Made by a program: the position numbers and the translations under genes. Under the pieces are notes generated by a model. It saw only the letters and a list, made by a program, of their open reading frames with translations. It was not told the origin of the DNA and did not search any database. A DNA stretch of 64,000 nt. Origin: an uncultured virus (IMG/VR IMGVR_UViG_3300020358_000003) (lineage: Duplodnaviria > Heunggongvirae > Uroviricota > Caudoviricetes). Positions 925 to 64,000 of this stretch are shown one piece after another; the first letter of the stretch is position 1; every line of letters begins with the position of its first letter. The stretch is taken from the IMG/VR virus record IMGVR_UViG_3300020358_000003. One strand, given 5' to 3'.

Positions 925-1707
925 ATGAAAAGACTTATATATCAAGTTTACGTTGGAAAGCGTTCAAAACTTTATGACCATTGTACACAGTCTGTGAAAG
1001 ATTATTGTAAACGTCACAGCATAGATTATGAAGTTCAAAGATCACCTATTCTTATGATTAAGCCTGATGTATTTTCTACAAACCGTAGTAAAGAATCGTA
1101 TGAAAAGCATGGTGGCTATCTTCCAATATATGAAAAAGAAAATGCATTCACTTATCTTAGATCATACGATCAAGTAGCAATTATTGATGCTGATGTGTGG
1201 ATTCGTCCAGACGCTCCAAATATCTTTGATGAACTACCTGAAGGTTATGATTTTGGTGCTGTTTGTGAAAGAGAAATGCCTATCAATAATCAGTATATGG
1301 CAAAAATTGCCAATTATTCTAGAATGCAATACAGCACGATTAAATCTGTTGATTGGAAATGGAATAATAAAACAGGTGGTCAGTTTTTCAATATGGGCAT
1401 CATGGTTATGAACAAATCAATTGAAAAGTACTTGAAAGGTGAAACTCCAGCACAATTTATTCGTAGACCAGAGTTCAAACCTTTTGTTGATGGTATGGGT
1501 GCTTGGAAATGGTCAACAGACCAAACACTTCTCAATACTTGGATTAGAGAGGAAAAAATGGCAATCAAGCATTTAGATTGGAAATGGAATGGTTTGTTCA
1601 CTGCTAACACTAAAATTAAAGAATGTCACTTTGTGCATTTCTTCTTAAAAGATAAACTACCAAATCGTGGTGAGAATGTAGAAGAATTGAGAAAGGTTGT
1701 AGAATGA
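925..1707 (+). CDS. glycosyltransferase, GT-A fold (GT8-like)
   Basis: IIDAD DxD motif, FNMG, DQTLLN, HFVHF. Confidence 0.75.
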   Translation: MKRLIYQVYVGKRSKLYDHCTQSVKDYCKRHSIDYEVQRSPILMIKPDVFSTNRSKESYEKHGGYLPIYEKENAFTYLRSYDQVAIIDADVWIRPDAPNIFDELPEGYDFGAVCEREMPINNQYMAKIANYSRMQYSTIKSVDWKWNNKTGGQFFNMGIMVMNKSIEKYLKGETPAQFIRRPEFKPFVDGMGAWKWSTDQTLLNTWIREEKMAIKHLDWKWNGLFTANTKIKECHFVHFFLKDKLPNRGENVEELRKVVE

Positions 1708-2399
1708 TACAAAAGTTTTTTATCCATATTCCGAAAAACGGTGGAATGAGTATTAGACGTAGCAATATTGCTAGACCTAAAGTAATGATTGCAGCACCAC
1801 AAACTCACAAAACTGGCGAATACACCCAAGCGGTTAGAAATAAAATGCAATCGCTTGGTGAGCATGATGGTTTTGAACACGCTAGATGGAAAGATATTAG
1901 CAAGGGTTTACAAGACAAAATGCAGTTTTTTGCGATTGTAAGAAATCCTTGGGACAGAGTTGTTTCTCGTTACTTTTTTGCTAAAAAGGTTATTTACCTT
2001 GAAGAAAATTCAGATCATTATGGTGAGACTGAATATTCAGATTGCTCATCATTTGAGGCTTTTCTTGAGGAAAGGCATAAATGGGGTGGACATGAATACA
2101 TGTGGCACAGAGCCATTCGTGGTTGGTATCCAGCAAAAGATTATGTAACTTGTGATAAAGGTATTATGCGTTGTGATATTTTACGACTTGAGCATTTAGA
2201 TGAAGAGATATGTAAATATTTAAATTTGCCATTTATGACAGGACCAAGAAATGTAACTGCTGTTAATGATAAGCGTTATCAAGACATATATACACCAGAG
2301 ACGATTCAAATTGTTGCGGATTGGTATAAAAATGATATTGAGCAGTGGGGTTTTGATTTTGATACACCTGCACAAAAAAACTATTGGTGTGAAGATTAA
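1704..2399 (+). CDS. sulfotransferase family 2 protein
   Basis: FFIHIPKNGG 5'-PSB motif and VRNPWDRVVS 3'-PB motif. Confidence 0.85.
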   Translation: MIQKFFIHIPKNGGMSIRRSNIARPKVMIAAPQTHKTGEYTQAVRNKMQSLGEHDGFEHARWKDISKGLQDKMQFFAIVRNPWDRVVSRYFFAKKVIYLEENSDHYGETEYSDCSSFEAFLEERHKWGGHEYMWHRAIRGWYPAKDYVTCDKGIMRCDILRLEHLDEEICKYLNLPFMTGPRNVTAVNDKRYQDIYTPETIQIVADWYKNDIEQWGFDFDTPAQKNYWCED

Positions 2400-2412
2400 T
2401 ATTGAGAATTGA

Positions 2413-3108
2413 ATGAAAACTAATATAATATATAATTCTATATCAGAAAAATCATCTGAAAATGCTCTACTTTGTAGACAATCTTTTAATAATTTTAAAG
2501 GTTGGGATGTTGAAATATTTGATGGTTGTAATCCATTAAACTTACATAAATATCACAATAAATATAATTTGAAAACCACTGAGAGAACACTACATCAAGA
2601 TAGACCATTAGTGAAAATACATTCAAAGAAATGTTGTTTTTATTCCCATTACGAGTTATGGAATAGATGTGCTGAATCTGGAAAAAATATGGTTATAGTT
2701 GAGCATGATACTGAGTGTGTATTAGACAACAATATACCAGAGTTTGACCCAAAAGAAAAACTTGCAATGCAATTAAGTACTGATACCATTTTATGGAATT
2801 GGCCTTGGTACAATACCGAAAAAAATAAAGAAAAATATGAAAAAAATGGTAGTGGTGTGCATGAAATATTTTATTCACAACCCAATGGTGTAAAATGTAT
2901 GTCTGGTAATACTGCATATTTAATAACACCAGCGGCATGTGAGCATTTAATACAAGATTGTATTAAAAATGGATGGACGCAAAACGATTTGTTAATAAAT
3001 ACAAGCCAATTTCCATTATATTACTATGCGCCTTCACCAATCGCATATATAAAGTCAAGAGAATTGAGATCATCTAGTGTGGGCGTAATAAAGGATTTTA
3101 TTAAATGA
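2413..3108 (+). CDS. glycosyltransferase family 25-like
   Basis: CFYSHYELW, IVEHD, AYLITP motifs. Confidence 0.75.
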   Translation: MKTNIIYNSISEKSSENALLCRQSFNNFKGWDVEIFDGCNPLNLHKYHNKYNLKTTERTLHQDRPLVKIHSKKCCFYSHYELWNRCAESGKNMVIVEHDTECVLDNNIPEFDPKEKLAMQLSTDTILWNWPWYNTEKNKEKYEKNGSGVHEIFYSQPNGVKCMSGNTAYLITPAACEHLIQDCIKNGWTQNDLLINTSQFPLYYYAPSPIAYIKSRELRSSSVGVIKDFIK

Positions 3109-3677
3109 TTAAAGCAGATTTGTTAGGAATAGATACTTTAGAAGAATGGTATAAATCTATTGTTAATCAACAAGAACAAGCGCATGGAGAACATTATTGT
3201 GCAATGCATAACGCTATTCAAGAGTGTTTGAGCGAAAGTAAGACATACAAAGAACTTGGTACAATGCAAGGTGGGACCGCCGCCGCTGCGTTGTTTTCTA
3301 CACCTCATCCAATAAGAGTTGATTTGGTTGATATTAATATGAGTAGATTTAATCCCCACAAACATCTTTTTGATGATTGGTGTAGTAAAAATAATATTGA
3401 ATTGAATGTTATGGAATGTGATTCAAGGCATCCTGATTGTGTTAGCGAAGTTGACGTTCTACTTATAGACTCAGTGCATTTAAGACCACATATGGAAAGT
3501 GAATTAAAGGCACACGCTAATACTGTGCAAAAATACATAGTATTTCATGATACAACAGCAAGACGCGATCTGGCACAAGGAATCGAAAAATTTTGTAGTA
3601 AGATTAACCCTTGGGTTTTACATGAAAAGTTTTTACCTAATGTTGGATACACCGTATTAAAAAGAGTTGGTGCGTAA
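3105..3677 (+). CDS. class I SAM-dependent methyltransferase (Methyltransf_24-like)
   Basis: ELGTMQG, LLIDSVH, YIVFHDT motifs. Confidence 0.75.
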   Translation: MIKADLLGIDTLEEWYKSIVNQQEQAHGEHYCAMHNAIQECLSESKTYKELGTMQGGTAAAALFSTPHPIRVDLVDINMSRFNPHKHLFDDWCSKNNIELNVMECDSRHPDCVSEVDVLLIDSVHLRPHMESELKAHANTVQKYIVFHDTTARRDLAQGIEKFCSKINPWVLHEKFLPNVGYTVLKRVGA

Positions 3678-3699
3678 TGATAATTGCAGAAAAATGTAA

Positions 3700-4665
3700 A
3701 TGAGTAAAATTTTTATTACAGGTATAGCTGGATTTATCGGTTACCATCTTGCAAGAAAGCTATTCTCCCAAGGACATGACGTTTCGGGATTAGACAGCTT
3801 TAATGATTATTATGATCCATCACTAAAGAGGATCAGAGCATCTAAATTGTCTGATTTGGGAATAGAAGTATTTGAATGCAATCTAACCTCTGATGCGTTC
3901 AAATTTTATAAAAATGCACATAGGCTTACTATACCTCAACCGTCTTTAGACGGTGTTGAAACCGTCATACATCTTGCGGCATATGCTGGTGTTAGACACT
4001 CAATGTTAGACCCGCATCTTTATATCCAGAATAACATTATCGCATCACAAAACTTAATTGACAGGTGTGAGAAAGACGGCGTAAATAGAATTTTATATGC
4101 GTCAACATCGTGCGTCATGGCGGGTAATCCACTGCCTTGGAAAGAGGATGTGAACTTAGGTCACCAATTAAATCCTTACGGCTTTACAAAAGCGACTACA
4201 GAATCTCAGTTCAAAACCAGCAAAATTAAAAATACTACTGGACTTAGATTTTTTACTGTATATGGTCCTTGGGGTCGCCCCGACATGGCACTATTTGACT
4301 TTACTAAAAACATTATTGCGGGCAATCCTATAAAGCTATTCAACAATGGAGATATGACTAGAGATTTTACTTATATTGATGATATTGTAAACGGAATCTT
4401 ACTTCTTTTGACCGCTGATGGCAAAGAAATATATAACATTGGTCGCGGCGAAAAAGTTAAATTGCTAGATTTTGTTCATGAAATTGAAAATAACTTAAAT
4501 ATAAAAGCGATCAAAGAAATGGTGCCTATGCATCCAGCAGATACTCAAACTACATGGTCTGATACAACTAAAATAAAAAAACTAGGATATAATCCAAAAG
4601 TATCAATTGGTGAAGGAATAGAAAATTTCGTAAATTGGTACAAATTTTATTATAAAGTGAATTAA
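3700..4665 (+). CDS. NAD-dependent epimerase, UDP-glucuronate 4-epimerase-like
   Basis: GIAGFIG, HLAAYAGVRHS, YGFTK, RFFTVYGPWGRPDMA, RDFTYIDD. Confidence 0.9.
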   Translation: MSKIFITGIAGFIGYHLARKLFSQGHDVSGLDSFNDYYDPSLKRIRASKLSDLGIEVFECNLTSDAFKFYKNAHRLTIPQPSLDGVETVIHLAAYAGVRHSMLDPHLYIQNNIIASQNLIDRCEKDGVNRILYASTSCVMAGNPLPWKEDVNLGHQLNPYGFTKATTESQFKTSKIKNTTGLRFFTVYGPWGRPDMALFDFTKNIIAGNPIKLFNNGDMTRDFTYIDDIVNGILLLLTADGKEIYNIGRGEKVKLLDFVHEIENNLNIKAIKEMVPMHPADTQTTWSDTTKIKKLGYNPKVSIGEGIENFVNWYKFYYKVN

Positions 4666-54256: not shown

Positions 54257-54466
54257 ATGTTATTTTCTAAAATTCAAGGCGAAAAAAATTACGTTAAAGA
54301 TTTAGAATCTGGTGCTATAATTAATAGTGATTGCGTAGAAATTGAAAAAGCGAAGGTAAGAAAGAAAAAGATGCGAGAAGAAAAAGAAGAATTTCAAGTA
54401 TTAAAATCAGAAGTGGCAGATATGAAAAATCTGCTTGTAGAAATTTCCAGAAAGTTAGGTGACTAA
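54257..54466 (+). CDS. small coiled-coil hypothetical protein
   Basis: KD..SGAIIN...LKSEVADMK.LL; typical position after the VrlC-like gene. Confidence 0.7.
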   Translation: MLFSKIQGEKNYVKDLESGAIINSDCVEIEKAKVRKKKMREEKEEFQVLKSEVADMKNLLVEISRKLGD

Positions 54467-55668
54467 TGGCTAGATTAGAAAATGTTGATCTCAGTAATTC
54501 AGTAAATGCTTGGAGAATGAAAACAAATCTTACCGCATCTTATGTTGGTGATTTGGATGATTTAAATACCACTGACAGTGGAAGTATTGTAGGTGCAGTA
54601 AATTCAATTCAAACTAAATTTGCTGTTAATGGTGAGGTGCAAGGATTAGCAAGAACTGCATTAGCATTATCAACTGGTGGGTCTGGTACATATTCAAGTT
54701 TATCTTATGTAGATTCAGCAGGAATTGGTGGAGGGGTTTTCACGTTTACTTGTAATCCACTCACGGCAAGCGATATTCCTAATTTAGATGCTGGAAAACT
54801 AACAACTGGAACTATTAATCCATCATTAATACCAGCAATAGATGCTGGGGTTATAACAACTGGAACATTAGCAACTGCGAGATTACCATATCTATCTGCA
54901 AATCAAACCACTGCTGGGCAATTTGATAGTGATCGTATCCCATCTTTACACGCTAATAAAATTAATAGGGGAACTTTTTTAATCGGAAGAATACCTGATA
55001 TTCCTTCTAGTAAAGTAGTGAGTGATGGTACTACAATACCATTAGAAGCAATGGACCCATCACTTGTAAGAAATAATCTTTCCACATCATACACTGGTAC
55101 AAGAGTATATAATGGAACTAGCACTTTTTACAATACGGTTACTGTTGGGACTTCTGCTCTTCCTGTTACATCAACATTTAATGGTCAAATAAATCACGCT
55201 GGGCATATTATTCCAGACACAGATAACTCTTACAGTGTGGGTAGTTCATCATTTAAATACGCAAATATGTATGCGACAACATTTAATGGTAATGCTACGT
55301 CTGCTAATTTCGCTGACCTTGCGGAGAAATATACCACAGATGAAGATTATCCAATAGGAACTGTTATGATGGTTAATTTTGATACTAATGGTGAAACTAC
55401 AAAATGCGGCAATTCTGGTATTCCAGTTGGGGTTATCTCAGCAGAACCAGCGTTTTTAATGAACGCTGAAGCAGAAGGACAAGCACTTGCTCTTAAAGGT
55501 AGGGTTCCTGTTAGAGTATGTGGTCAAATTAGAAAAGGTGAGGCTGTTTATACTTGGAAAAATGGGTGTGGTAGTACAGAATTTAATGGCGCACATATGA
55601 TTGGAATATCACTTGAGACCAGTGATATTGAAGATGAAAAAATGATTGAGTGTGTTCTTAAACTTTAA
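54466..55668 (+). CDS. tail fibre protein with a C-terminal intramolecular chaperone (peptidase G2-like) domain
   Basis: About five 17-aa IPxLxAxKxTxG repeats; ADLAEKY...GVIS..PA..MN...ALKGRVPV. Confidence 0.75.
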   Translation: MARLENVDLSNSVNAWRMKTNLTASYVGDLDDLNTTDSGSIVGAVNSIQTKFAVNGEVQGLARTALALSTGGSGTYSSLSYVDSAGIGGGVFTFTCNPLTASDIPNLDAGKLTTGTINPSLIPAIDAGVITTGTLATARLPYLSANQTTAGQFDSDRIPSLHANKINRGTFLIGRIPDIPSSKVVSDGTTIPLEAMDPSLVRNNLSTSYTGTRVYNGTSTFYNTVTVGTSALPVTSTFNGQINHAGHIIPDTDNSYSVGSSSFKYANMYATTFNGNATSANFADLAEKYTTDEDYPIGTVMMVNFDTNGETTKCGNSGIPVGVISAEPAFLMNAEAEGQALALKGRVPVRVCGQIRKGEAVYTWKNGCGSTEFNGAHMIGISLETSDIEDEKMIECVLKL

Positions 55669-55676
55669 ATTGTCTA

Positions 55677-55705
55677 TTGACATTCTAAATTATAAGGTTT
55701 ATAAT
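55677..55705 (+). promoter_or_regulatory. consensus sigma70 promoter of the rSAM/oxygenase cluster
   Basis: TTGACA-17-TATAAT, then AAGGA RBS. Confidence 0.85.
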
Positions 55706-55731: not shown

Positions 55732-56250
55732 ATGATCACCAAAAGTCAATTCTTGAGTATAATCTCAAGTGATATTGCTTATGAGCAAAATATGGTCTAT
55801 GCCATAGACGAAAATGGTAGAGAACATCTCATGAAAAATTTTGCAGATACACTTGCAAATAAAGATACAAATTCAATAAAAATTGAAAGAATGGAAGCAT
55901 ACAACTCGGAAATTTTTTCCTATTGTTTAGAACTAGAAGATATGTATGAGCATAATGGCCCAATAACATGTCATTTATTTTATGCTGAAAAAAATGCTCA
56001 TTCATTCAAAAAACATACTGATCCAGATAATGTTGTTATATATTGTTGTGAAGGTATGAAAACTATAGCAATGGAAGGTCATACTATGGGTGGTGAGCCA
56101 GTATTTACTTTGAAGGCAGGTGCAATACTACATATTCCTGCGAATACTCTTCACCAAGCATTTAATGAACATGAGGCACTTACTTTGAGTTTTGGCTTAG
56201 AAAAATTTATAGAGGATAAAATGAATAGTGTTTTGGTCAGTATACCTTAA
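55732..56250 (+). CDS. JmjC/cupin-4-like oxygenase
   Basis: SFKKHTD (HxD), EG.K, HIPANTLH, LSFG. Confidence 0.75.
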   Translation: MITKSQFLSIISSDIAYEQNMVYAIDENGREHLMKNFADTLANKDTNSIKIERMEAYNSEIFSYCLELEDMYEHNGPITCHLFYAEKNAHSFKKHTDPDNVVIYCCEGMKTIAMEGHTMGGEPVFTLKAGAILHIPANTLHQAFNEHEALTLSFGLEKFIEDKMNSVLVSIP

Positions 56251-57247
56251 AACCACAGAAACTTGTCAATTAAACTGTAAGCACTGTTTTACTTCTGGTA
56301 GCAATGGTGCTAAAATTTATTGGAATACTGATAAGATAGTTGATTGGATACATAGATTTCGTGAAGAAAAACCTGCAAAGGGTGATGGTATTCATTTAGA
56401 GTTTCATGGAGGCGAACCATTTCTTGTACCTGTAGGGCAAATGAGAAAGGTGTATGATGCTTGTGATGGTCTTTGGGATAATATGAGTTGGGGAGCCACA
56501 ACCAATTTAGTGTATAAATTAAAAGATCAGCATAGAGAATTTATAAAAGGTCCACTTAGAAATAGGTTAGGAACTTCATGGGACCGTAAGATAAGATTTG
56601 ATAATCAAAAACAATATAACTTGTGGCATAAAAACGTCAAGTCTCTTTTAGCAGATGGTGTAACTATACGTTTGTTTATTAGTCTTACTAAAGATACTTT
56701 AGAAAAAGACCCTATTGTATTATTAAGATGGTGTAGAAGATTGGGAGTTCAAGAGGTATCTTTAGAGAGATTGACCAATAATGGTTCAGCGCGTGAAGCA
56801 TCAGAAATATTTCCATCAAATAAAGAGTTAGATGCTTATTTTTTGAAAATGCACCAGCAAAGTGAAGAATATGGAGCGCGAGATTGGTTTGAAAATGATT
56901 TTTTTGAAAATATATATGCTAAATTTGAAAAAACTCTTACGACATGTGGTACTTTTTGTAGAGATTGCGAAACAAAACTATTCACGATAAATGGTGATGG
57001 TACAATAAGTGGTTGTCCAAATTCAGCACCAGAATTTCAGTTTGGAACTTTAGATGATCCCATTAAAACTCTTATAAATAGTCCTAGAAGAATAAGAACT
57101 ATCATTGAAGAAAAAATGAGAAACCCCAATTGTCTTTCTTGTCCTGTTGCGAAATATTGTGGTGGCGATTGTCATCAATTAGGATGGGAAGGTGATGTGT
57201 GTGGCGCACCTAAAAGTTTAATGATGGAATTGGCAAAGAATGTCTAG
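56228..57247 (+). CDS. radical SAM/SPASM domain protein
   Basis: CQLNCKHC, FHGGEP, CRDC...DG...GCP, CLSC....YCGGDC...C. Confidence 0.92.
   Translation: MFWSVYLKTTETCQLNCKHCFTSGSNGAKIYWNTDKIVDWIHRFREEKPAKGDGIHLEFHGGEPFLVPVGQMRKVYDACDGLWDNMSWGATTNLVYKLKDQHREFIKGPLRNRLGTSWDRKIRFDNQKQYNLWHKNVKSLLADGVTIRLFISLTKDTLEKDPIVLLRWCRRLGVQEVSLERLTNNGSAREASEIFPSNKELDAYFLKMHQQSEEYGARDWFENDFFENIYAKFEKTLTTCGTFCRDCETKLFTINGDGTISGCPNSAPEFQFGTLDDPIKTLINSPRRIRTIIEEKMRNPNCLSCPVAKYCGGDCHQLGWEGDVCGAPKSLMMELAKNV
57073..57080 (+). promoter_or_regulatory. possible internal T4-type late promoter
   Basis: TATAAATA about 180 nt upstream of ORF 57258; could be chance in AT-rich DNA. Confidence 0.4.
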
Positions 57248-57257
57248 GAGATAAAGA

Positions 57258-58097
57258 ATGGCGATATCAGACCCTATTACAGAAAATCCTGTAATTACAA
57301 AATACAGACAGTTTGTGACTGATAAAATTAATAGTGCTATCGTGTTTGGTGATGATAATGTACCAGACGCATCTGTTGCCAGTTATTTTCATGGCACTAG
57401 AAGTGGTGTGACCACTAGTCCTGATTTAATAGATGGGCCTATAACAGCATCAAATATTTTTGCTGTTCTATTGAAGGATGTTAACAAATATACTAGAATT
57501 AGAAAATTTAATGCTACAAGAACGGTAACAGGTATTCCAGGTGGCAACACACCAATCCCAACACGCAATAGTTCTTCTACTGCAAATGCAGATGCTGAAA
57601 AAAACTTTGCGTGTGAATGGCAATCTGCTTTAGATGATGAAATTGCCTCGCGAAGTTTTAGGGGAAATACGCCCACATTTGGTGACCATATTTCAGCGTT
57701 CTTCACAAAATATAATACCTATGGAATTGGTGGAAAGCCTACTACAAAGCAAGAAGCAAGAGACCTACAACCTGCTGCTCAAAGTGCATGTGTTGCAGCA
57801 ACTCAAAAATATGGCGTAAGTCTGAGAACTGGTGCTAAAATCAATACACCTTTAAATGTTAGTGGAGTCGGTATTCTAACAGCAAAACATAGTTTTTTTA
57901 TTGATTCTAGTGATGTTGATCATTCAATGATTGTAGCAGGAGATTTAATTGATGATGCTGATATGGAGTCATTATTCAATAACCTATATCAAGCATGGAA
58001 AAGTGTTGCATTAGACGGTACGGTAACAGGATATAGCGAGTCTGTGTGTCATTCCAATTGCCACTCTAATTGTCACTCATCAAGGAATAGGAGATAA
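57258..58097 (+). CDS. putative rSAM substrate protein with a C-terminal (CHSx)3 repeat
   Basis: AGGAG RBS; ends VCHSNCHSNCHSSRNRR; flanked by rSAM genes. Confidence 0.75.
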   Translation: MAISDPITENPVITKYRQFVTDKINSAIVFGDDNVPDASVASYFHGTRSGVTTSPDLIDGPITASNIFAVLLKDVNKYTRIRKFNATRTVTGIPGGNTPIPTRNSSSTANADAEKNFACEWQSALDDEIASRSFRGNTPTFGDHISAFFTKYNTYGIGGKPTTKQEARDLQPAAQSACVAATQKYGVSLRTGAKINTPLNVSGVGILTAKHSFFIDSSDVDHSMIVAGDLIDDADMESLFNNLYQAWKSVALDGTVTGYSESVCHSNCHSNCHSSRNRR

Positions 58098-58104
58098 ATT
58101 TATT

Positions 58105-58758
58105 ATGAATAATTATGTTACAGTGACTGCCCCTCTAGGTATTGATGACTTGCAGAAATATTTTTCTGATGACAGCATTAATTTTATTATTGATTATGAA
58201 AATAGTGAGTTACAAGGTGAGAAATTGCTTGTCTATTTAAGCAACTTAGAATTACCTTGTGATATTAAAGTTGAAAGAAATGATTTAGAAACCCTTGCAA
58301 AAATTTATCTCCAGTTTCCGCAAATATTAAATATTAAAGTTTTAGAAGAATTTATTATTAAGGTTCTTTTGGTAAGAAAAAAACTATCTTTAGAATCTTT
58401 AGATTACTATCAAGATTTCATTGATGATAATGAAGAAGTGATTGATACTTGGATTAAAAAGTTGGACTCATTGACACTTTATAATATGTATATTATCCAA
58501 GATGATGAAATGAAAGATTGGGTACTATCCCATAAAGAAGATGATACTGATGATATAAAAGGTATAAATTTTGTATCTGTATTAAAACATGAAGATTTTT
58601 ATTACTACTACAATGGTTTAGATGAAAAAAACTTGACCTATTATTCAAAATATTTTAATGAATATATGTTTAATGGGAAAGGTTTATTCGATTATTGGTC
58701 CTATGAAAAAAATCCAATTTTCCTATTAACTTGGGGAGTTGGTGCAGGAGAAGTTTAA
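58105..58758 (+). CDS. hypothetical protein of the rSAM cluster
   Basis: Acidic 217-aa ORF; AGGAG RBS. Confidence 0.75.
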   Translation: MNNYVTVTAPLGIDDLQKYFSDDSINFIIDYENSELQGEKLLVYLSNLELPCDIKVERNDLETLAKIYLQFPQILNIKVLEEFIIKVLLVRKKLSLESLDYYQDFIDDNEEVIDTWIKKLDSLTLYNMYIIQDDEMKDWVLSHKEDDTDDIKGINFVSVLKHEDFYYYYNGLDEKNLTYYSKYFNEYMFNGKGLFDYWSYEKNPIFLLTWGVGAGEV

Positions 58759-59799
58759 TTGGATTTAGTAGATTTTATTTTAAGAGATAAAAGAGATAAG
58801 CAGCAAGAATACACAATTCATTTATTTGAATTTTGTAATCTGTCTTGTCCATTTTGCTGGCAAGACCATGACAACATTGTGGGTATTGATACTGTATTGG
58901 ACAAGTTGGAATCAATAGAAAAGTTTTTTCAAAAAGAGATGAGGAAACATGTAGTTTTAAACATCATGGGTGGTGAGATATTCGCTGATGAAATTTTTGA
59001 TGAAAAATTGAAGAACGACTATATTGCTCTTGCCCAAGGAATAGTAGACTTAGGAAAAAAATATAAGTTTGAGAGTATAGGAATTAATTGGGTCACTAAC
59101 CTAGTAATTAGTAAAAGAGACTATGTGCGAGATATATTGAAGGCGTGTAGAGATATGGGCTGTAACTCAAAACTCGTAACTTCATATGATCCTAGAGGTA
59201 GATTCAATAAACCAAACTTAGAAATTTTCAAAGAAAATGTATATGATTTCTGGGATGATCTTGAAGGAATTGGTGTTCTTTTAACCAAGTCTAATATTAA
59301 ATATTGGTTGACTGATCCTAAAGATTTTATGCACGAATTATATCATAAGGGCGTAAAGGTTTATGCTGATTATTACATGCCTGATTGTCAAGCAGAACGA
59401 AGTATGCCAACAGACAAAGAACATTATGATATTTTCACGCATTTTATAGATAAGTATCCTAAAATTGAGCCTATTCGTTCTTGGATAGAAAATGAGCGTA
59501 ATGTTGTTTCATGCAGATCATCTAAATTAGTTCTTGAGGATGGAACCATGTGTTTGTGTGGAAATCTTGTTCAAGAGCCAAGAGATAAAGCGATGTACAA
59601 AACAGACATACAGAAGGCTAATAACAAACCTATTGAAAAGGCTTTCCTTGAAAAGTATAATTGCTCTACTTGTGAATATTTTCATAGATGTACTCTTGGG
59701 TGTTTCATGGCACATGATTATAAATATGCAGAAGAGGTTTTTGATGAATGTGTCTATAAAATGACACATAGATACATTGAAAATAAAGGATTAAGATGA
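58759..59799 (+). CDS. radical SAM protein with a SPASM-like C-terminus
   Basis: CNLSCPFC, MGGE, C...DG..CLC, CSTC....RCTLGC...C; TTG start after AGGAG. Confidence 0.88.
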   Translation: MDLVDFILRDKRDKQQEYTIHLFEFCNLSCPFCWQDHDNIVGIDTVLDKLESIEKFFQKEMRKHVVLNIMGGEIFADEIFDEKLKNDYIALAQGIVDLGKKYKFESIGINWVTNLVISKRDYVRDILKACRDMGCNSKLVTSYDPRGRFNKPNLEIFKENVYDFWDDLEGIGVLLTKSNIKYWLTDPKDFMHELYHKGVKVYADYYMPDCQAERSMPTDKEHYDIFTHFIDKYPKIEPIRSWIENERNVVSCRSSKLVLEDGTMCLCGNLVQEPRDKAMYKTDIQKANNKPIEKAFLEKYNCSTCEYFHRCTLGCFMAHDYKYAEEVFDECVYKMTHRYIENKGLR

Positions 59800-59800
59800 G

Positions 59801-60436
59801 ATGTTTTTTTATAAAAATGGCGATAAATCTCCAATTAGCCAATCCTTTATAAATAGATTTCCAACAAGAAAAAGATTAACTAATCCAATTAAAGAAATTG
59901 ATATAGAGTATAATGTATGCCATACAGTATTTGATTATTTAGTTGATACTAAATTACCACCATGCATTCATTTTTTAGATAATTTTTTGAAAAGTGAAGT
60001 GTATGTGTTTAGTGTTCCACTATCAAGTAATTTATTATCTAAAGTTAATAGTAAATCTATGATGGAAGATTATACTACTCAATTTACTGGATCACCCAAA
60101 ACAGTAGTAAATAATGATTATGAGTTAGGATGGATTGGCATAGAGAAAACTAAAAATTATACAATAATGTCAAATATTCAAATAAATGGAATTTATAGAG
60201 ATTGCTTAACCAGAAGGCAAGAAATAGATTTTTATAAAACTATGATCAAGTTTTGTAAAGGTGAAATATTGAATATGCCAATTTATGTGCCTACAGCCGA
60301 AACACTATACACACAAATGAAAAAAAATCCTGCACATCCTGATAGTGCTATAATGGAAACACCTTACACATCTAAGGTTTTAAAGGGGTTCACAAAGATA
60401 CAATTTATGAACATGGAGTTTTATAAAAATGATTAA
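59801..60436 (+). CDS. hypothetical protein
   Basis: 211-aa ORF coupled to both neighbours. Confidence 0.65.
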   Translation: MFFYKNGDKSPISQSFINRFPTRKRLTNPIKEIDIEYNVCHTVFDYLVDTKLPPCIHFLDNFLKSEVYVFSVPLSSNLLSKVNSKSMMEDYTTQFTGSPKTVVNNDYELGWIGIEKTKNYTIMSNIQINGIYRDCLTRRQEIDFYKTMIKFCKGEILNMPIYVPTAETLYTQMKKNPAHPDSAIMETPYTSKVLKGFTKIQFMNMEFYKND

Positions 60437-62096
60437 CGTAGGTTATGTGAATCCAACAGGAATACCCTCAAGAGCAGAATTTAACTATCATTGGATGCTT
60501 TTTAAATGTTTTTATGAAGATTATGGAAAATATCCAGAAAAAGTTACTTGGGTGGAGCCAATATTCAAATGGAATGAAGTTACAATACAAGATTGTTTGG
60601 ATAATGTTAAAGGGTGTTCCATTGTATTTTTTACCAACTATGTTTGGAATTATAAAATTAACCAAAGGATACGAAATGGTCTTGATCCAGATACCATAGT
60701 AGTTATGGGTGGTCCTCAACAAGACCCTGATATAATAAAAGATTATGACTATGTTGCAGACCCTCTTGCTCCAGGAGAAATATTTGTACAATACTTTCTT
60801 GATATGTATCTAGAGGATTCTGTTGATAAGAAAAAGATTCCATTTTATTTGGGTAGTTCTTTAAAAATTCCTCTTCCATTTGGACATACGAATGTATATA
60901 AGAGATGTGAAGATTATTTTACCAAAGAATATGAACACTTCATAAAAAATATAGACCTATATGAGCGAATAACATTGATATATGAAAGCACTAGAGGATG
61001 CCCATTTAAGTGTTCTTATTGCGAGTGGGGTGGTGGTACTGGAACAAAAGTTCTAAAAAAACCTATGGCTGTGATAAAGGATGAAATGGAATTTATAGGG
61101 CGGTTCAAGGGTGTGCATATTGATTTGTGTGATGCTAATACAGGAATGTTTAAAGAACGTGACCGAGAAATGATGATGCATATGGTGGATAATGGAGTTC
61201 AAATTGGTGAAAATCTATCAGTATTAAAAACTTTAAAATTGGAACAGAAAAAAGAAATGCTTGATTTTATGATTGAGCATGACATTACTCGCCAAGTCAT
61301 CAGTATTAGTTTACAGTCTATTTCAGAAGAAGCGAGAAGAATAGCAAATAGGAGAGACCTTAATGTTGAAGAAACCTATGAATTGGTGGATCATTTAACT
61401 AGTAAATGGAATAATTTTAAAGAAAAGGAATTATGGTTAGATTTAGAATTAATTTTAGCGATGCCAGGGTCTACATTAAAAGATTTTTACGAAGAATTTA
61501 AGGTATATTATAGAGTTGGATATAATGAAGGAAAAGATTGGGAAGAATGGAAAGGTCTTGATGTATGGGCAGACACTAGATATCCCTACATGGTTTTACC
61601 AGCAACTGAGGCCGCTAGTAAAGAATATCAAGAAAAATATAAAATAAAAACCTCAAAGGTATTGACACAATTTGATGGCAACTATAGTGGAAAATGGGAT
61701 AATGTTGAAGTAAATCCAATATATGGTGATGTGGCGTATGAATATGATACTATAGTTGAATGTTTTTCATATACGTTTGAAGAATATTTAGAAATGTTTA
61801 TAATGAATTTATTCACGCCACATGTAGGTTTAAGTTTTATAAAAGAGTACACCACTTATGAAAACGTGGCTGAAGTGGCAAAAGAGTTATGGAATATATT
61901 GAATGATATACCAATGTTTTTTGTTTACAAAGAACTGATAAGAAATATATTTCTTGATAATAATTCTCATAGTATAGATAAGTTTGATGTTGGACACTTT
62001 AAGGATAAAGATATTGTTAATGAGATGAAAATATTACTAGAAAAAAATGAAGAAATGATAAAGGAAAGATTAGATGAATTCTGTAGAAATTTATGA
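60429..62096 (+). CDS. radical SAM protein with a B12-binding-like N-terminal domain
   Basis: YVWN...VVMGGPQ, YESTRGCPFKCSYCEWG, DAN.G, SLQS, ELIL.MPG.T. Confidence 0.85.
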   Translation: MINVGYVNPTGIPSRAEFNYHWMLFKCFYEDYGKYPEKVTWVEPIFKWNEVTIQDCLDNVKGCSIVFFTNYVWNYKINQRIRNGLDPDTIVVMGGPQQDPDIIKDYDYVADPLAPGEIFVQYFLDMYLEDSVDKKKIPFYLGSSLKIPLPFGHTNVYKRCEDYFTKEYEHFIKNIDLYERITLIYESTRGCPFKCSYCEWGGGTGTKVLKKPMAVIKDEMEFIGRFKGVHIDLCDANTGMFKERDREMMMHMVDNGVQIGENLSVLKTLKLEQKKEMLDFMIEHDITRQVISISLQSISEEARRIANRRDLNVEETYELVDHLTSKWNNFKEKELWLDLELILAMPGSTLKDFYEEFKVYYRVGYNEGKDWEEWKGLDVWADTRYPYMVLPATEAASKEYQEKYKIKTSKVLTQFDGNYSGKWDNVEVNPIYGDVAYEYDTIVECFSYTFEEYLEMFIMNLFTPHVGLSFIKEYTTYENVAEVAKELWNILNDIPMFFVYKELIRNIFLDNNSHSIDKFDVGHFKDKDIVNEMKILLEKNEEMIKERLDEFCRNL

Positions 62097-62604
62097 CGAT
62101 TTTTTAAGCCAAGAAGAACTCAACAAGATAAAACATAAGTTTTCTTTTGATAAATCAGCAATGGATGATCTGCCAAGATTTAATATGCAAAAAAATATGG
62201 CAATAAATATTAAAAATCATATGGATGATTTTCCAAATTTAAATAAGGCAAAAACTATTGCGTTATGTAAAGATTCAAATATAAGTAAAATTGCTATATC
62301 ACATTTAATTAAGATCGTCAAGTATGAAGAAGATAATAATGAAAATATGATTTGGGAACCACATCATGATGGAACAGAGTCTAAAATTATTACTTTATTT
62401 TTTATAGATATAGATAATAGTGGTTGGCAAGGTGGTGAGTTAGATATTTATGATTCTCTTGATATTTTTCAATATCCAAAAAATAAAACTAGAATAGAGC
62501 CGAAAGTAGGTAGATTAGTAGTTTTTAATAGTTCTATGGTGCATTGTATTAGACCCTATTTCGGAGATAAACCAAGAATGACTGTAAGTGTGGGTTGGGA
62601 GTAA
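62074..62604 (+). CDS. 2OG-Fe(II) oxygenase (prolyl hydroxylase-like)
   Basis: PHHD, W.GGEL, P..GRLVVF...HC.RP...R. Confidence 0.85.
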   Translation: MNSVEIYDDFLSQEELNKIKHKFSFDKSAMDDLPRFNMQKNMAINIKNHMDDFPNLNKAKTIALCKDSNISKIAISHLIKIVKYEEDNNENMIWEPHHDGTESKIITLFFIDIDNSGWQGGELDIYDSLDIFQYPKNKTRIEPKVGRLVVFNSSMVHCIRPYFGDKPRMTVSVGWE

Positions 62605-62605
62605 A

Positions 62606-63160
62606 ATGAATATTGATAAAAATTCTGGATGCTTTATTGAGAATAATCCTAATATGTTTATTTATCTACAAGACACGTTGCCAAAATTAAGATGGTTGCA
62701 TATAAAAAGAAGTGATTCAAAAAAGTCTGATAGATGGCAAAGTGTAGCATGGAATTATTATTTTCACTCTATGAAAAGTAAGATGTTAAAAACTGCTGAT
62801 TTACTTTGCGAAACCTATTTACCGTTAGAAACGGAAAAGAACTTAGATTATTATACTATGTGGAATGGTACGGATACAGGTTCGTGTGAATGGCATCATG
62901 ATACTGAGGGTGGAAATTTACAATTTAATTTATATTTTACAGACTTACCACCTAATAATGGTGGTGAGATAATGTATAGAAATATGCAACAAAATAAAAG
63001 AATAACTGCATTTCATTCACCTAAAAAATATGATATAGTGATGGGAAGTGTTGGTGATGATTTAAAGTTTCAACATAGAGTTGAGCATACAAAAGAATTG
63101 AAACAAGAAAGAATAACAATGCTTTTTAGGTTTAAAGTGAAGAATTCACCATGGACCTAA
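62606..63160 (+). CDS. 2OG-Fe(II) oxygenase
   Basis: WHHD, LYFTD, GGE, F.HRV...R. Confidence 0.8.
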   Translation: MNIDKNSGCFIENNPNMFIYLQDTLPKLRWLHIKRSDSKKSDRWQSVAWNYYFHSMKSKMLKTADLLCETYLPLETEKNLDYYTMWNGTDTGSCEWHHDTEGGNLQFNLYFTDLPPNNGGEIMYRNMQQNKRITAFHSPKKYDIVMGSVGDDLKFQHRVEHTKELKQERITMLFRFKVKNSPWT

Positions 63161-64000
63161 TCATTAAACCAACAGAACTATGCAATTTTAAATGCTCTTT
63201 CTGTTCTTCTTCTAAAATTACTCAAGAGGATAACACTGCCGTACTTGATTTGAATAAGATATTTAAATTTCTTAAAAGATTTCCTGAAACGCAAACTATC
63301 ATCGTAAATGGTGGTGATCCTTTAATGATGAGGCCAAATTACTATTGGAAGTTAATAGAGTTTTTAGATAAGCATGACATGCCAGCGACGATATCTCTTA
63401 CAACTAATTTGTATCCTTTTTTAATGAAACCAAAAAAATGGGTAGAACTCTTTAATCATAATAGAATTGGTGTTGGAACTTCATTTCAATATGGTGGTGG
63501 TAGGCTCAAGGGAGATTACAGTGAATTTACAGAAGAAGATTTTTGGAAATGTTCTGATGCGATGCTTGAGCATGTAGGCTATAGACCATCATTTATTGCA
63601 GTGATTGTGGATGAAAATGAAGATACTGTAATACAGACTGTAGAACTTGCTAAGAAGATGGATGTTGTTTGTAAGGTGAATTATGCTATGGCATCTGGTT
63701 CTCAATCTGCGCCATATAGACTTTCAAAAATATACGAAAGATATATTCAAATTTGGAAAGCAGGTTTAAGTGATTGGGAACATAACACTCAACAAATGTT
63801 AAATAGGTTGAGAAAAAAGCCAACCATATGCCCTCAGTCCAGAAACTGCGATAGTGGTATTCGTAATATCCAACCAGAAGGTGATTACTATTCTTGCGGT
63901 TCTTTCGGTGATGATTTTGACAAACCAATAGATTTTGAATATGAAATGAATGGGGGTTTTGAAACACCTCTCAGTAATGATTTGAGTTTAATGAGTCTTA
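63151..64000 (+). CDS. radical SAM/SPASM protein, truncated by the window end (not in the ORF track)
   Basis: MDLIIKPTELCNFKCSFC, NGGDP, TTNL, CPQSRNC...PEGDYYSCG. Confidence 0.88.
   Translation, partial: MDLIIKPTELCNFKCSFCSSSKITQEDNTAVLDLNKIFKFLKRFPETQTIIVNGGDPLMMRPNYYWKLIEFLDKHDMPATISLTTNLYPFLMKPKKWVELFNHNRIGVGTSFQYGGGRLKGDYSEFTEEDFWKCSDAMLEHVGYRPSFIAVIVDENEDTVIQTVELAKKMDVVCKVNYAMASGSQSAPYRLSKIYERYIQIWKAGLSDWEHNTQQMLNRLRKKPTICPQSRNCDSGIRNIQPEGDYYSCGSFGDDFDKPIDFEYEMNGGFETPLSNDLSLMSL

What the first reader, a model, noticed from the sequence alone, without database searches (positions are those of the whole stretch)
57258..58097. Candidate substrate ending in VCHSNCHSNCHSSRNRR, possibly late-expressed and virion-borne
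Seen in sequence: three CHSx units whose codons differ synonymously (TGT CAT TCC AAT / TGC CAC TCT AAT / TGT CAC TCA TCA), which fits protein-level selection rather than recent slippage, followed by a basic RNRR end. The body is Thr/Ser/Gly/Ala-rich like the structural proteins, and TATAAATA lies at 57073 inside the upstream rSAM gene. Established: Cys-Xaa3 repeat and His-Xaa-Ser repeat peptides are predicted rSAM targets in bacteria. Inference: this is an unusually long (279 aa) precursor or virion protein. The enzymes would be made early and the substrate late, giving a crosslinked or metal-chelating tip that might be used for receptor or iron-uptake mimicry.
Basis: partly seen in the sequence, partly recalled or inferred. 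Interest (0 to 1): 0.8.

Follow-up and report, generated by a model that had tools for sequence, protein, structure and literature searches.

The report
Enzyme-modified tail on phage particle protein
A small, late-made protein of this marine virus of bacteria ends in a nearly invariant cysteine-histidine repeat and is always encoded among radical-SAM enzymes, so the virus probably cross-links that tail chemically before building the protein into its particle, perhaps at the tip of a host-gripping fibre.

Summary
The 279-aa ORF of this T4-like phage ends in (C-H-x-S/N)3-R-N-R-R. The tail is nearly invariant: 117 of 120 homologues found by the body alone end in it, while the body is the fastest-diverging gene of the cassette among close relatives.

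The gene sits in a conserved cassette behind a fibre gene: JmjC oxygenase, rSAM/SPASM enzyme, this gene, an unknown gene, then further rSAM enzymes and oxygenases. 75 of 76 loci with full flanks carry two or more rSAM genes.

The internal TATAAATA is under selection: it lies upstream of this gene in 43 of 44 T4-like loci, against 0 of 44 for the two upstream enzymes, and relocates when lost. The homologue in phage Atu_ph07 (gp170) is in the published virion proteome, its enzymes are not, and it peaks far above its mass.

Best reading: a virion protein whose tail is cross-linked by the cassette. No modification is shown; iron mimicry is untested. New leads: a three-fold internal repeat and fibre neighbours (also in a Bdellovibrio locus) suggest a fibre-tip cap. 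I found no paper describing it. This scan found the same cassette before on other DNA.

The parts
57258..58097 (+). CH-tail protein, 279 aa; folded body with three similar helix-start segments and a variable helical insertion (about residues 95-200); probable virion protein
   Evidence: virion location by homology to Atu_ph07 gp170
58047..58094 (+). tail (C-H-x-S/N)3-R-N-R-R, residues 264-279; predicted modification site; low model confidence
57073..57080 (+). T4-type late promoter TATAAATA inside the rSAM1 coding sequence (codons L-I-N-S)
   Evidence: no start site measured
55677..55705 (+). perfect sigma-70 consensus TTGACA-17-TATAAT in front of the cupin; candidate early promoter
   Evidence: consensus match only
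55732..56250 (+). JmjC/cupin oxygenase (PF08007, 29.8 bits, cut-off 22), HxD...H visible in the sequence
56228..57247 (+). rSAM1: radical SAM/SPASM enzyme, CxxxCxxC at residues 13-20, so no room for an N-terminal RRE; directly upstream of the CH gene in 69 of 76 loci
58105..58758 (+). conserved protein of unknown function (phrog_20767), directly downstream in 71 of 76 loci; no fold match
58759..59799 (+). rSAM2: radical SAM enzyme with SPASM-like cysteines (phrog_1802)
59801..60436 (+). 211-aa unknown gene, found in few loci
60429..62096 (+). rSAM3: 555-aa radical SAM enzyme, nearest to B12-dependent methyltransferase families, far below their cut-offs
62074..63160 (+). two 2OG-Fe(II) oxygenases (the second below Pfam cut-off)
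63151..64000 (+). rSAM4 (phrog_1802), cut by the window end; close relatives carry five or more rSAM genes
54466..55668 (+). 400-aa fibre-like protein with an invariant ADLAE motif before a C-terminal domain resembling a self-cleaving chaperone; proposed partner of the CH protein

Best explanation
The ORF encodes a late-made virion protein whose 16-residue C-terminal tail is the substrate of the phage's own enzyme cassette. Steps: (1) cupin and rSAM1 are transcribed from a host-type promoter and the CH protein from a late promoter inside rSAM1 (late site supported by comparison; timing inferred). (2) One or more rSAM/SPASM enzymes abstract hydrogen at the Ser/Asn of each C-H-x-S/N unit and close rings to the His two residues before (triceptide-like) and/or the Cys three residues before (thioether); the JmjC and 2OG oxygenases and the methyltransferase-like rSAM3 may add hydroxyls or methyls (all inferred). 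(3) The finished protein joins the particle (shown for one homologue), where its fast-changing body faces the host and the rigid, basic tail serves as a covalent or metal-binding staple or a binding tip (inferred). The most likely site is the distal end of the fibre encoded just upstream (inferred, about 40%).
For: Tail invariant while the body drifts: 146 of 150 best profile hits; 117 of 121 hits that pass on the body alone; 117 of the 120 listed hits of a body-only search. The fourth position is S 753, N 105, A 24, D 5, Q 1 of 888, never G, T or V, while the third takes 16 residue types including G 141 times: this fits an unbranched beta-carbon as the reacting site. One homologue has Tyr for His in the third unit. 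Cassette linkage: 75 of 76 full-flank loci have two or more rSAM genes by profile and the exception has divergent CxxxCxxC proteins; same order in T4-like phages, Atu_ph07, Phosso, RSL2 and DT01. rSAM1's best NCBIfam hits are mostly peptide-modifying SPASM families. Late site: 43 of 44 against 0 of 44, relocation, 26 of 30 against 10 of 218 codon contexts. Virion: gp170 has 8 peptides and 35% coverage, while gp165-169, 171 and 172 are absent from Table S5 of PMC6102473; its body scores 46.2 bits against a best shuffle of 8.8. gp170 (31.89 kDa) peaks in band 1, with 127-139 kDa proteins; it is the only one of 28 proteins of 25-37 kDa with 3 or more peptides to do so (24, 4 more read).
Against: No modified residue has been observed. 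The band-1 behaviour can come from disulfides or a stable oligomer: the loading buffer as printed lists no reducing agent, and two poorly covered proteins of similar size also peak in band 1. The published coverage does not tell whether the tail peptide was seen: 2 peptide sets give 104 residues, 1 with the tail. All rSAM family scores are far below cut-off (best 46 bits against 300), so substrate class is not assigned. rSAM1 lacks room for an N-terminal RRE. Four or more rSAM genes and three oxygenases are many for one 16-mer; some may act on other proteins or small molecules. Virion evidence comes from one distant phage; the RP31 virion table does not bear on it because RP31 has a different cassette. 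Loci are related, so counts are not independent events.
Confidence: 0.72

Rival explanations
1. The tail is an unmodified metal-binding or disulfide-forming motif (three Cys on one helix face, three His beside them) that holds an oligomer together; the enzymes modify something else, such as the fibre, DNA, tRNA or a small molecule, and co-travel with the gene.
For: Cys and His at i, i+4, i+8 with a predicted helix at 270-277; non-reduced gel can explain band 1. His-based metal sites in trimeric fibre tips are known (recalled, no call). The number of enzymes exceeds what three rings need.
Against: A metal site does not explain the restriction of the fourth position to S/N/A/D/Q, the fixed distance to the stop (142 of 146 end six residues after the last His), or rSAM1 sitting directly upstream in 69 of 76 loci across unrelated phage groups.
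Confidence: 0.15
2. The tail is a RiPP core that is modified and cut off, with the body acting as a large leader; the product is a free peptide (metallophore or signal), not part of the particle.
For: Motif resembles RiPP cores; the tail has low model confidence (68 and 56 in the last two blocks); the genome carries an Fe-S carrier gene.
Against: The body is confidently folded, varies like a surface protein and is in virions; none of the cassette genes that could be assigned is a protease or exporter, although two are unassigned.
Confidence: 0.06
3. The protein is an internal or ejected virion protein whose modified, basic tail binds DNA or counters a host HXS-type block of DNA entry.
For: HxsA uses basic His-x-Ser repeats to bind DNA in the periplasm, with an rSAM-dependent +8 Da change (PMC13128918); the tail here has three H-x-S/N units and RxRR.
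Against: Gene position behind fibre genes (58 of 77 loci), fast divergence of the body and the Bdellovibrio locus beside pilin-like fibre genes point to a surface role.
Confidence: 0.07

Closest known systems
HXS anti-phage system (HxsA matured by HxsB/HxsC with HxsD; PMC13128918; abstract, one results section and discussion read)
   Same: A folded protein with repeated His-x-Ser units and basic residues, matured by more than one rSAM enzyme plus a small partner protein, acting at the cell envelope.
   Different: Bacterial defence, not phage; four-residue C-H-x-S period at the very C-terminus here; rSAM1 scores 31.6 bits against HxsB's cut-off of 370; the CH protein matches no NCBIfam model.
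Triceptides, His-containing: HaaB, YhhB, HtkB (PMC11499958; passages read)
   Same: Aromatic-X2-X3 motif with a cross-link from His to the beta-carbon of X3; here H-x-S/N/A with no Gly at X3.
   Different: Triceptide precursors are small peptides; here the carrier is a 125-300 aa virion protein with a Cys before each His; rSAM1 scores 28.8 against YhhB's 445.
CXXX-repeat targets and ranthipeptides (TIGR04115 maturase; PapB, NF047865)
   Same: Cys every fourth residue next to rSAM/SPASM enzymes; nearest named Atlas cluster is the Cys-rich repeat target family, at 0.79, a lead only.
   Different: Only three units, fixed His and Ser/Asn; scores 37.2 against 350 and 41.6 against 340.
T-even gp37/gp38 fibre and tip adhesin (recalled; search listing only)
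   Same: A small, fast-changing protein encoded just downstream of a fibre that carries a self-cleaving chaperone domain.
   Different: No sequence or fold match found; no enzyme cassette is recalled for gp38; binding to the fibre was not tested.
Marine T4-like genomes rich in radical SAM and Fe-S carrier genes (Nishimura et al. 2017, PMC5332604; passages read)
   Same: T4-like phage with many rSAM genes and an A-type Fe-S carrier; the nearest record here has one.
   Different: In the passages read they are treated as Fe-S auxiliary metabolism and no substrate is named; I did not check whether their genome carries this cassette.

Membership tests
HXS system (HxsA/B/C/D) | rSAM enzymes matching HxsB/HxsC models | tested here: not met
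   rSAM1 31.6 bits against cut-off 370 for TIGR03978; no HxsC row shown for any cassette enzyme scanned (best 25 of 35 rows shown for rSAM1)
HXS system (HxsA/B/C/D) | substrate matching the His-Xaa-Ser repeat protein models | tested here: not met
   query matches no NCBIfam model; no His-Xaa-Ser family matched by two or more of 150 members (first 25 of 62 families shown)
HXS system (HxsA/B/C/D) | repeated H-x-S units essential for function | tested here: inconclusive
   H-x-S/N present three times and conserved; function not testable
Triceptides | aromatic-X2-X3 motif with a beta-carbon at X3 | tested here: met
   X3 is S/N/A/D/Q in 888 of 888 positions
Triceptides | maturase in a known cyclophane-synthase family | tested here: not met
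   YhhB 28.8/445, AmcB 19.6/425, FxsB 17.8/370
Triceptides | aromatic-to-beta-carbon cross-link | not testable with these tools
   needs MS and NMR
CXXX-repeat / ranthipeptide systems | Cys-x3 repeat beside an rSAM/SPASM enzyme | tested here: met
CXXX-repeat / ranthipeptide systems | maturase above family cut-off (TIGR04115, PapB) | tested here: not met
   37.2/350 and 41.6/340
RiPP in the strict sense | short leader plus core, N-terminal RRE on the enzyme | tested here: not met
   body is a folded domain found in virions; CxxxCxxC at residues 13-20 of rSAM1
T4-like late virion gene | conserved TATAAATA upstream | tested here: met
T4-like late virion gene | product in purified particles | tested here: inconclusive
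   shown for the homologue gp170 in PEG-purified Atu_ph07; not testable for this uncultured phage
Fibre-tip adhesin of gp38 type | binds the tip of a trimeric fibre | not tested
   the complex prediction did not run; only gene order and a three-fold internal repeat bear on it
Fibre-tip adhesin of gp38 type | gp38-like fold | tested here: inconclusive
   no match; the core was barely tested because the helical insertion filled the list

The most novel reading that the evidence does not exclude
A pseudo-three-fold cap protein sits on the end of self-cleaving trimeric fibres in large phages and in predatory Bdellovibrio, and its tail is turned by four or more radical-SAM enzymes and several oxygenases into a polycyclic His/Cys structure that either locks it covalently into the appendage or forms the host-binding (possibly metal-loaded) tip. 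That would be a natural-product-like chemical group built onto a virus particle for prey recognition.
Probability: 0.3. Interest if true: 0.92.

Novelty: new variant of a known kind. Interest (0 to 1): 0.76.

Why it matters
Radical-SAM maturation of a phage structural protein appears in none of the papers my searches reached. The cassette is widespread (510 clusters at 50% identity) and crosses T4-like, Atu_ph07-like and phiKZ-like phages and at least one predatory bacterium. It offers a concrete reason why some marine T4-like phages carry many rSAM genes and Fe-S carriers that were filed as auxiliary metabolism. It is testable now, because cultured phages carry it and one already has a virion proteome.

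Tried and rejected
Direct tblastn of the ORF and of a short homologue against cultured phages found nothing real; cultured homologues were reached through neighbours. No Pfam or NCBIfam family for the ORF, and only a weak PHROG hit on the tail region. No solved structure by profile or fold (best Z 5.4 on the inserted hairpin only), which does not show the fold is new. phrog_20767: no Pfam, PDB profile, Atlas or fold assignment; two rSAM chains at Z about 3 are too weak to call it a pseudo-rSAM. The 360-aa gene that follows phrog_20767 in most loci has no Pfam match above cut-off and was not found in five searched records (four are fragments, and no positive control was included). Peptide arithmetic on gp170 coverage is ambiguous. 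RNA-library contigs 99% alike cover parts of 57093-58089 in two runs of one study, and one begins near 57090, but contigs show neither start nor strand and DNA is not excluded. The window-wide count of TATAAATA is at chance level. Body-only scores of RSL2 ORF068 and of the short tandem proteins of L086/L089 (4.6-8.6 bits) do not exceed shuffles (best 8.8): their kinship rests on tail and synteny. A likeness of RP31's small proteins to the body is not above shuffles. No complex prediction was obtained, so binding to the fibre and self-association are open. Literature: nine completed searches bearing on description in print plus term look-ups in PMC7824862 ('radical' 0 times), PMC11898562, PMC8066314 and PMC5468394 found only gene lists. 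The RSL2/RSF1 proteome paper was not in the listings; bioRxiv supplements and subscription journals were not visible.

Full report
Observation. It holds the only CHxxCH in the window's six frames. The window is a T4-like phage: gp32, tail tube, baseplate hub and wedge genes run from 30648 to 54255. They are followed by a 400-aa fibre-like gene, a JmjC oxygenase, rSAM1, the ORF, phrog_20767, rSAM2, an unknown gene, rSAM3, two 2OG oxygenases and rSAM4. RNA runs that hold parts of the region are marine. The host was not determined.

The tail is a family trait. Fifteen close homologues share all three Cys, three His and three Arg. A profile search gave 510 clusters at E<=0.001. Of the best 150, 146 carry CHxxCHxxCH, and 142 of these end six residues later. 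Because the profile contains the tail, I repeated the test without it. Of 147 hits rescored, 121 pass on the body alone and 117 of those carry the motif. A body-only search gave 550 hits; 117 of the 120 listed end exactly in CHxxCHxxCHxxRxRR. Over 296 distinct proteins the fourth position of each unit is S, N, A, D or Q in all 888 cases, while the third is free and often Gly. The body diverges fastest among close relatives: against L011 the rSAM1 is 99% identical, cupin 95%, phrog_20767 91%, fibre segments 70-98%, and this protein 58%, with 41% in its middle. In a more distant comparison set (reference L039) the fibre diverges more than this protein.

The cassette travels with it. I annotated 90 loci plus the window; 89 have a motif-bearing ORF (L055 has a variant tail, L092 is a false hit). 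Of 76 with at least 2.5 kb on both sides, 75 have two or more rSAM genes, 69 have rSAM1 directly upstream, 71 have phrog_20767 directly downstream and 72 have the cupin. These loci are the best 80 of 181 viral matches, six genome matches and four cultured phages reached through phrog_20767; they were not dereplicated for this count. The one exception, L086, has divergent CxxxCxxC proteins. Cultured carriers include Atu_ph07, Phosso, pPa_SNUABM_DT01 and the RSL2 group. The enzymes hit peptide-modifying rSAM/SPASM models only far below cut-off.

Late expression. TATAAATA is not enriched in the window, although four of the twelve copies lie 8-101 nt before structural genes. Across 44 dereplicated T4-like loci, the window included, it lies within 300 nt upstream of this gene in 43. 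The counts for other genes are 0 of 44 for cupin, 0 of 44 for rSAM1, 0 of 42 for phrog_20767, 5 of 40 for rSAM2 and 6 of 44 for the fibre. Where rSAM1 reads LLKSP instead of LINSP, the octamer reappears at -34 or -163; other lineages place it at -97 in another reading phase. Compatible four-residue contexts near the end of rSAM1 spell the octamer in 26 of 30 distinct cases, against 10 of 218 elsewhere. A perfect sigma-70 site precedes the cupin, but only 13 of 44 loci reach 11/12 there. No start site was measured.

Virion location. Atu_ph07 gp170 has the same tail and neighbours. Its body scores 46.2 bits on a tail-less profile against 8.8 for the best of 800 shuffles, and a 296-aa Atu_ph07 protein is the third structural hit of the model. 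In Table S5 of PMC6102473 (passages and the whole table read) gp170 has 8 peptides and 35% coverage, the fibre homologue gp176 is also present, and the cassette enzymes are absent. The listed mass matches my translation (31.89 kDa). It peaks in band 1, where 127-139 kDa proteins lie, alone among 28 proteins of 25-37 kDa with three or more peptides. The printed loading buffer names no reductant, so this shows a resistant assembly, not its chemistry.

Anatomy. The model is confident (pLDDT 89.9, pTM 0.87) except for the tail. Three long strands and three helices form the core, and residues of about 95-200 are an insertion present in few family members. The three core helices begin with similar consensus segments (PItaqNI, pItAsnI, lItaanL), which suggests an internal three-fold repeat; I did not test its significance. 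No solved structure matched. A fibre of the upstream family lies within 3 kb in 58 of 77 loci and directly precedes the gene where the enzymes have moved (L081, L086, L089). It has an invariant ADLAE motif and weak, sub-threshold hits to the Peptidase_G2 self-cleaving domain. In a Bdellovibrio bin (L093) the cassette follows three proteins with Peptidase_S74 domains above cut-off and sub-threshold prepilin motifs. The phiKZ-like phages place it behind a different type of virion protein. By analogy with T-even gp37/gp38 (recalled), the protein may cap a chaperone-matured trimeric fibre; this was not tested.

Mechanism. Supported by data: conserved tail, fixed enzyme neighbours, selected late site, virion presence of one homologue. 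Inferred: that the enzymes act on the tail; that rings form from His or Cys to the Ser/Asn beta-carbon, as His-X2-X3 motifs do in triceptides (PMC11499958); that oxygenases and rSAM3 decorate further; and that the product works at the fibre tip. I put tail modification of a virion protein at 0.72, an unmodified metal or disulfide motif at 0.15, an ejected DNA-binding role at 0.07 and a released peptide at 0.06.

Comparison and novelty. It works like HXS maturation (PMC13128918) and like triceptide or CXXX systems, but fails the enzyme-family tests for all of them. My searches found only gene lists (PMC11898562, PMC8066314, PMC5468394; passages read) and the remark that marine T4-like genomes carry up to 12 rSAM genes (PMC5332604). 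Earlier notes of this scan describe the same cassette on other genomes; they are not independent support, but they gave the HXS paper and the Bdellovibrio lead, which I checked. Verdict: real, widespread, undescribed in the literature I could reach, chemically unproven.

Noticed in passing
L098:3634-3831 (Ralstonia phage RP31): An unannotated 65-aa ORF ending in N-C-N-C-N-C-A-C-T-R-G-S-L lies at the equivalent place (behind virion genes, before a different rSAM set), suggesting a second tail type used the same way. Its likeness to the CH body is not above shuffles.
   Followed up: partly
L055:6623-7162: A family member whose tail is a hybrid, two C-H-x-S units followed by C-N-C-N-R-G-R-R, bridging the two tail types.
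   Followed up: partly
L086:6983-7746 and L089:6062-6879: Two tandem short (about 125-140 aa) CH-tail proteins directly behind the fibre gene, with divergent rSAM genes after them.
   Followed up: partly
L093:1421-13146 and L091:3322-13481: The cassette in two uncultured Bdellovibrio bins; in L093 it follows three pilin-like proteins with S74 chaperone domains.
   Followed up: partly
window 58758-58759 compared with L016:8538-9644: A conserved unknown gene of about 360 aa, found in 72 loci mostly right after phrog_20767, is missing from the window's clade (L009-L015) and was not detected in Atu_ph07 or Phosso loci.
   Followed up: partly
G001:C1:44270-44563: The nearest virus record carries an A-type Fe-S carrier gene (PF01521 above cut-off), a plausible support for the many Fe-S enzymes.
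   Followed up: partly
P0052: A 453-aa homologue with a glycine-rich N-terminal extension in front of the whole CH domain.
   Followed up: no
window 1704-4665: A sulfotransferase-like gene and a nucleotide-sugar epimerase at the start of the window, possibly a surface-glycan cluster.
   Followed up: no
window 59633-59661 and 59719-59726: A near-consensus sigma-70 site (11/12) and a TATAAATA lie near the end of rSAM2, before the 211-aa gene.
   Followed up: no
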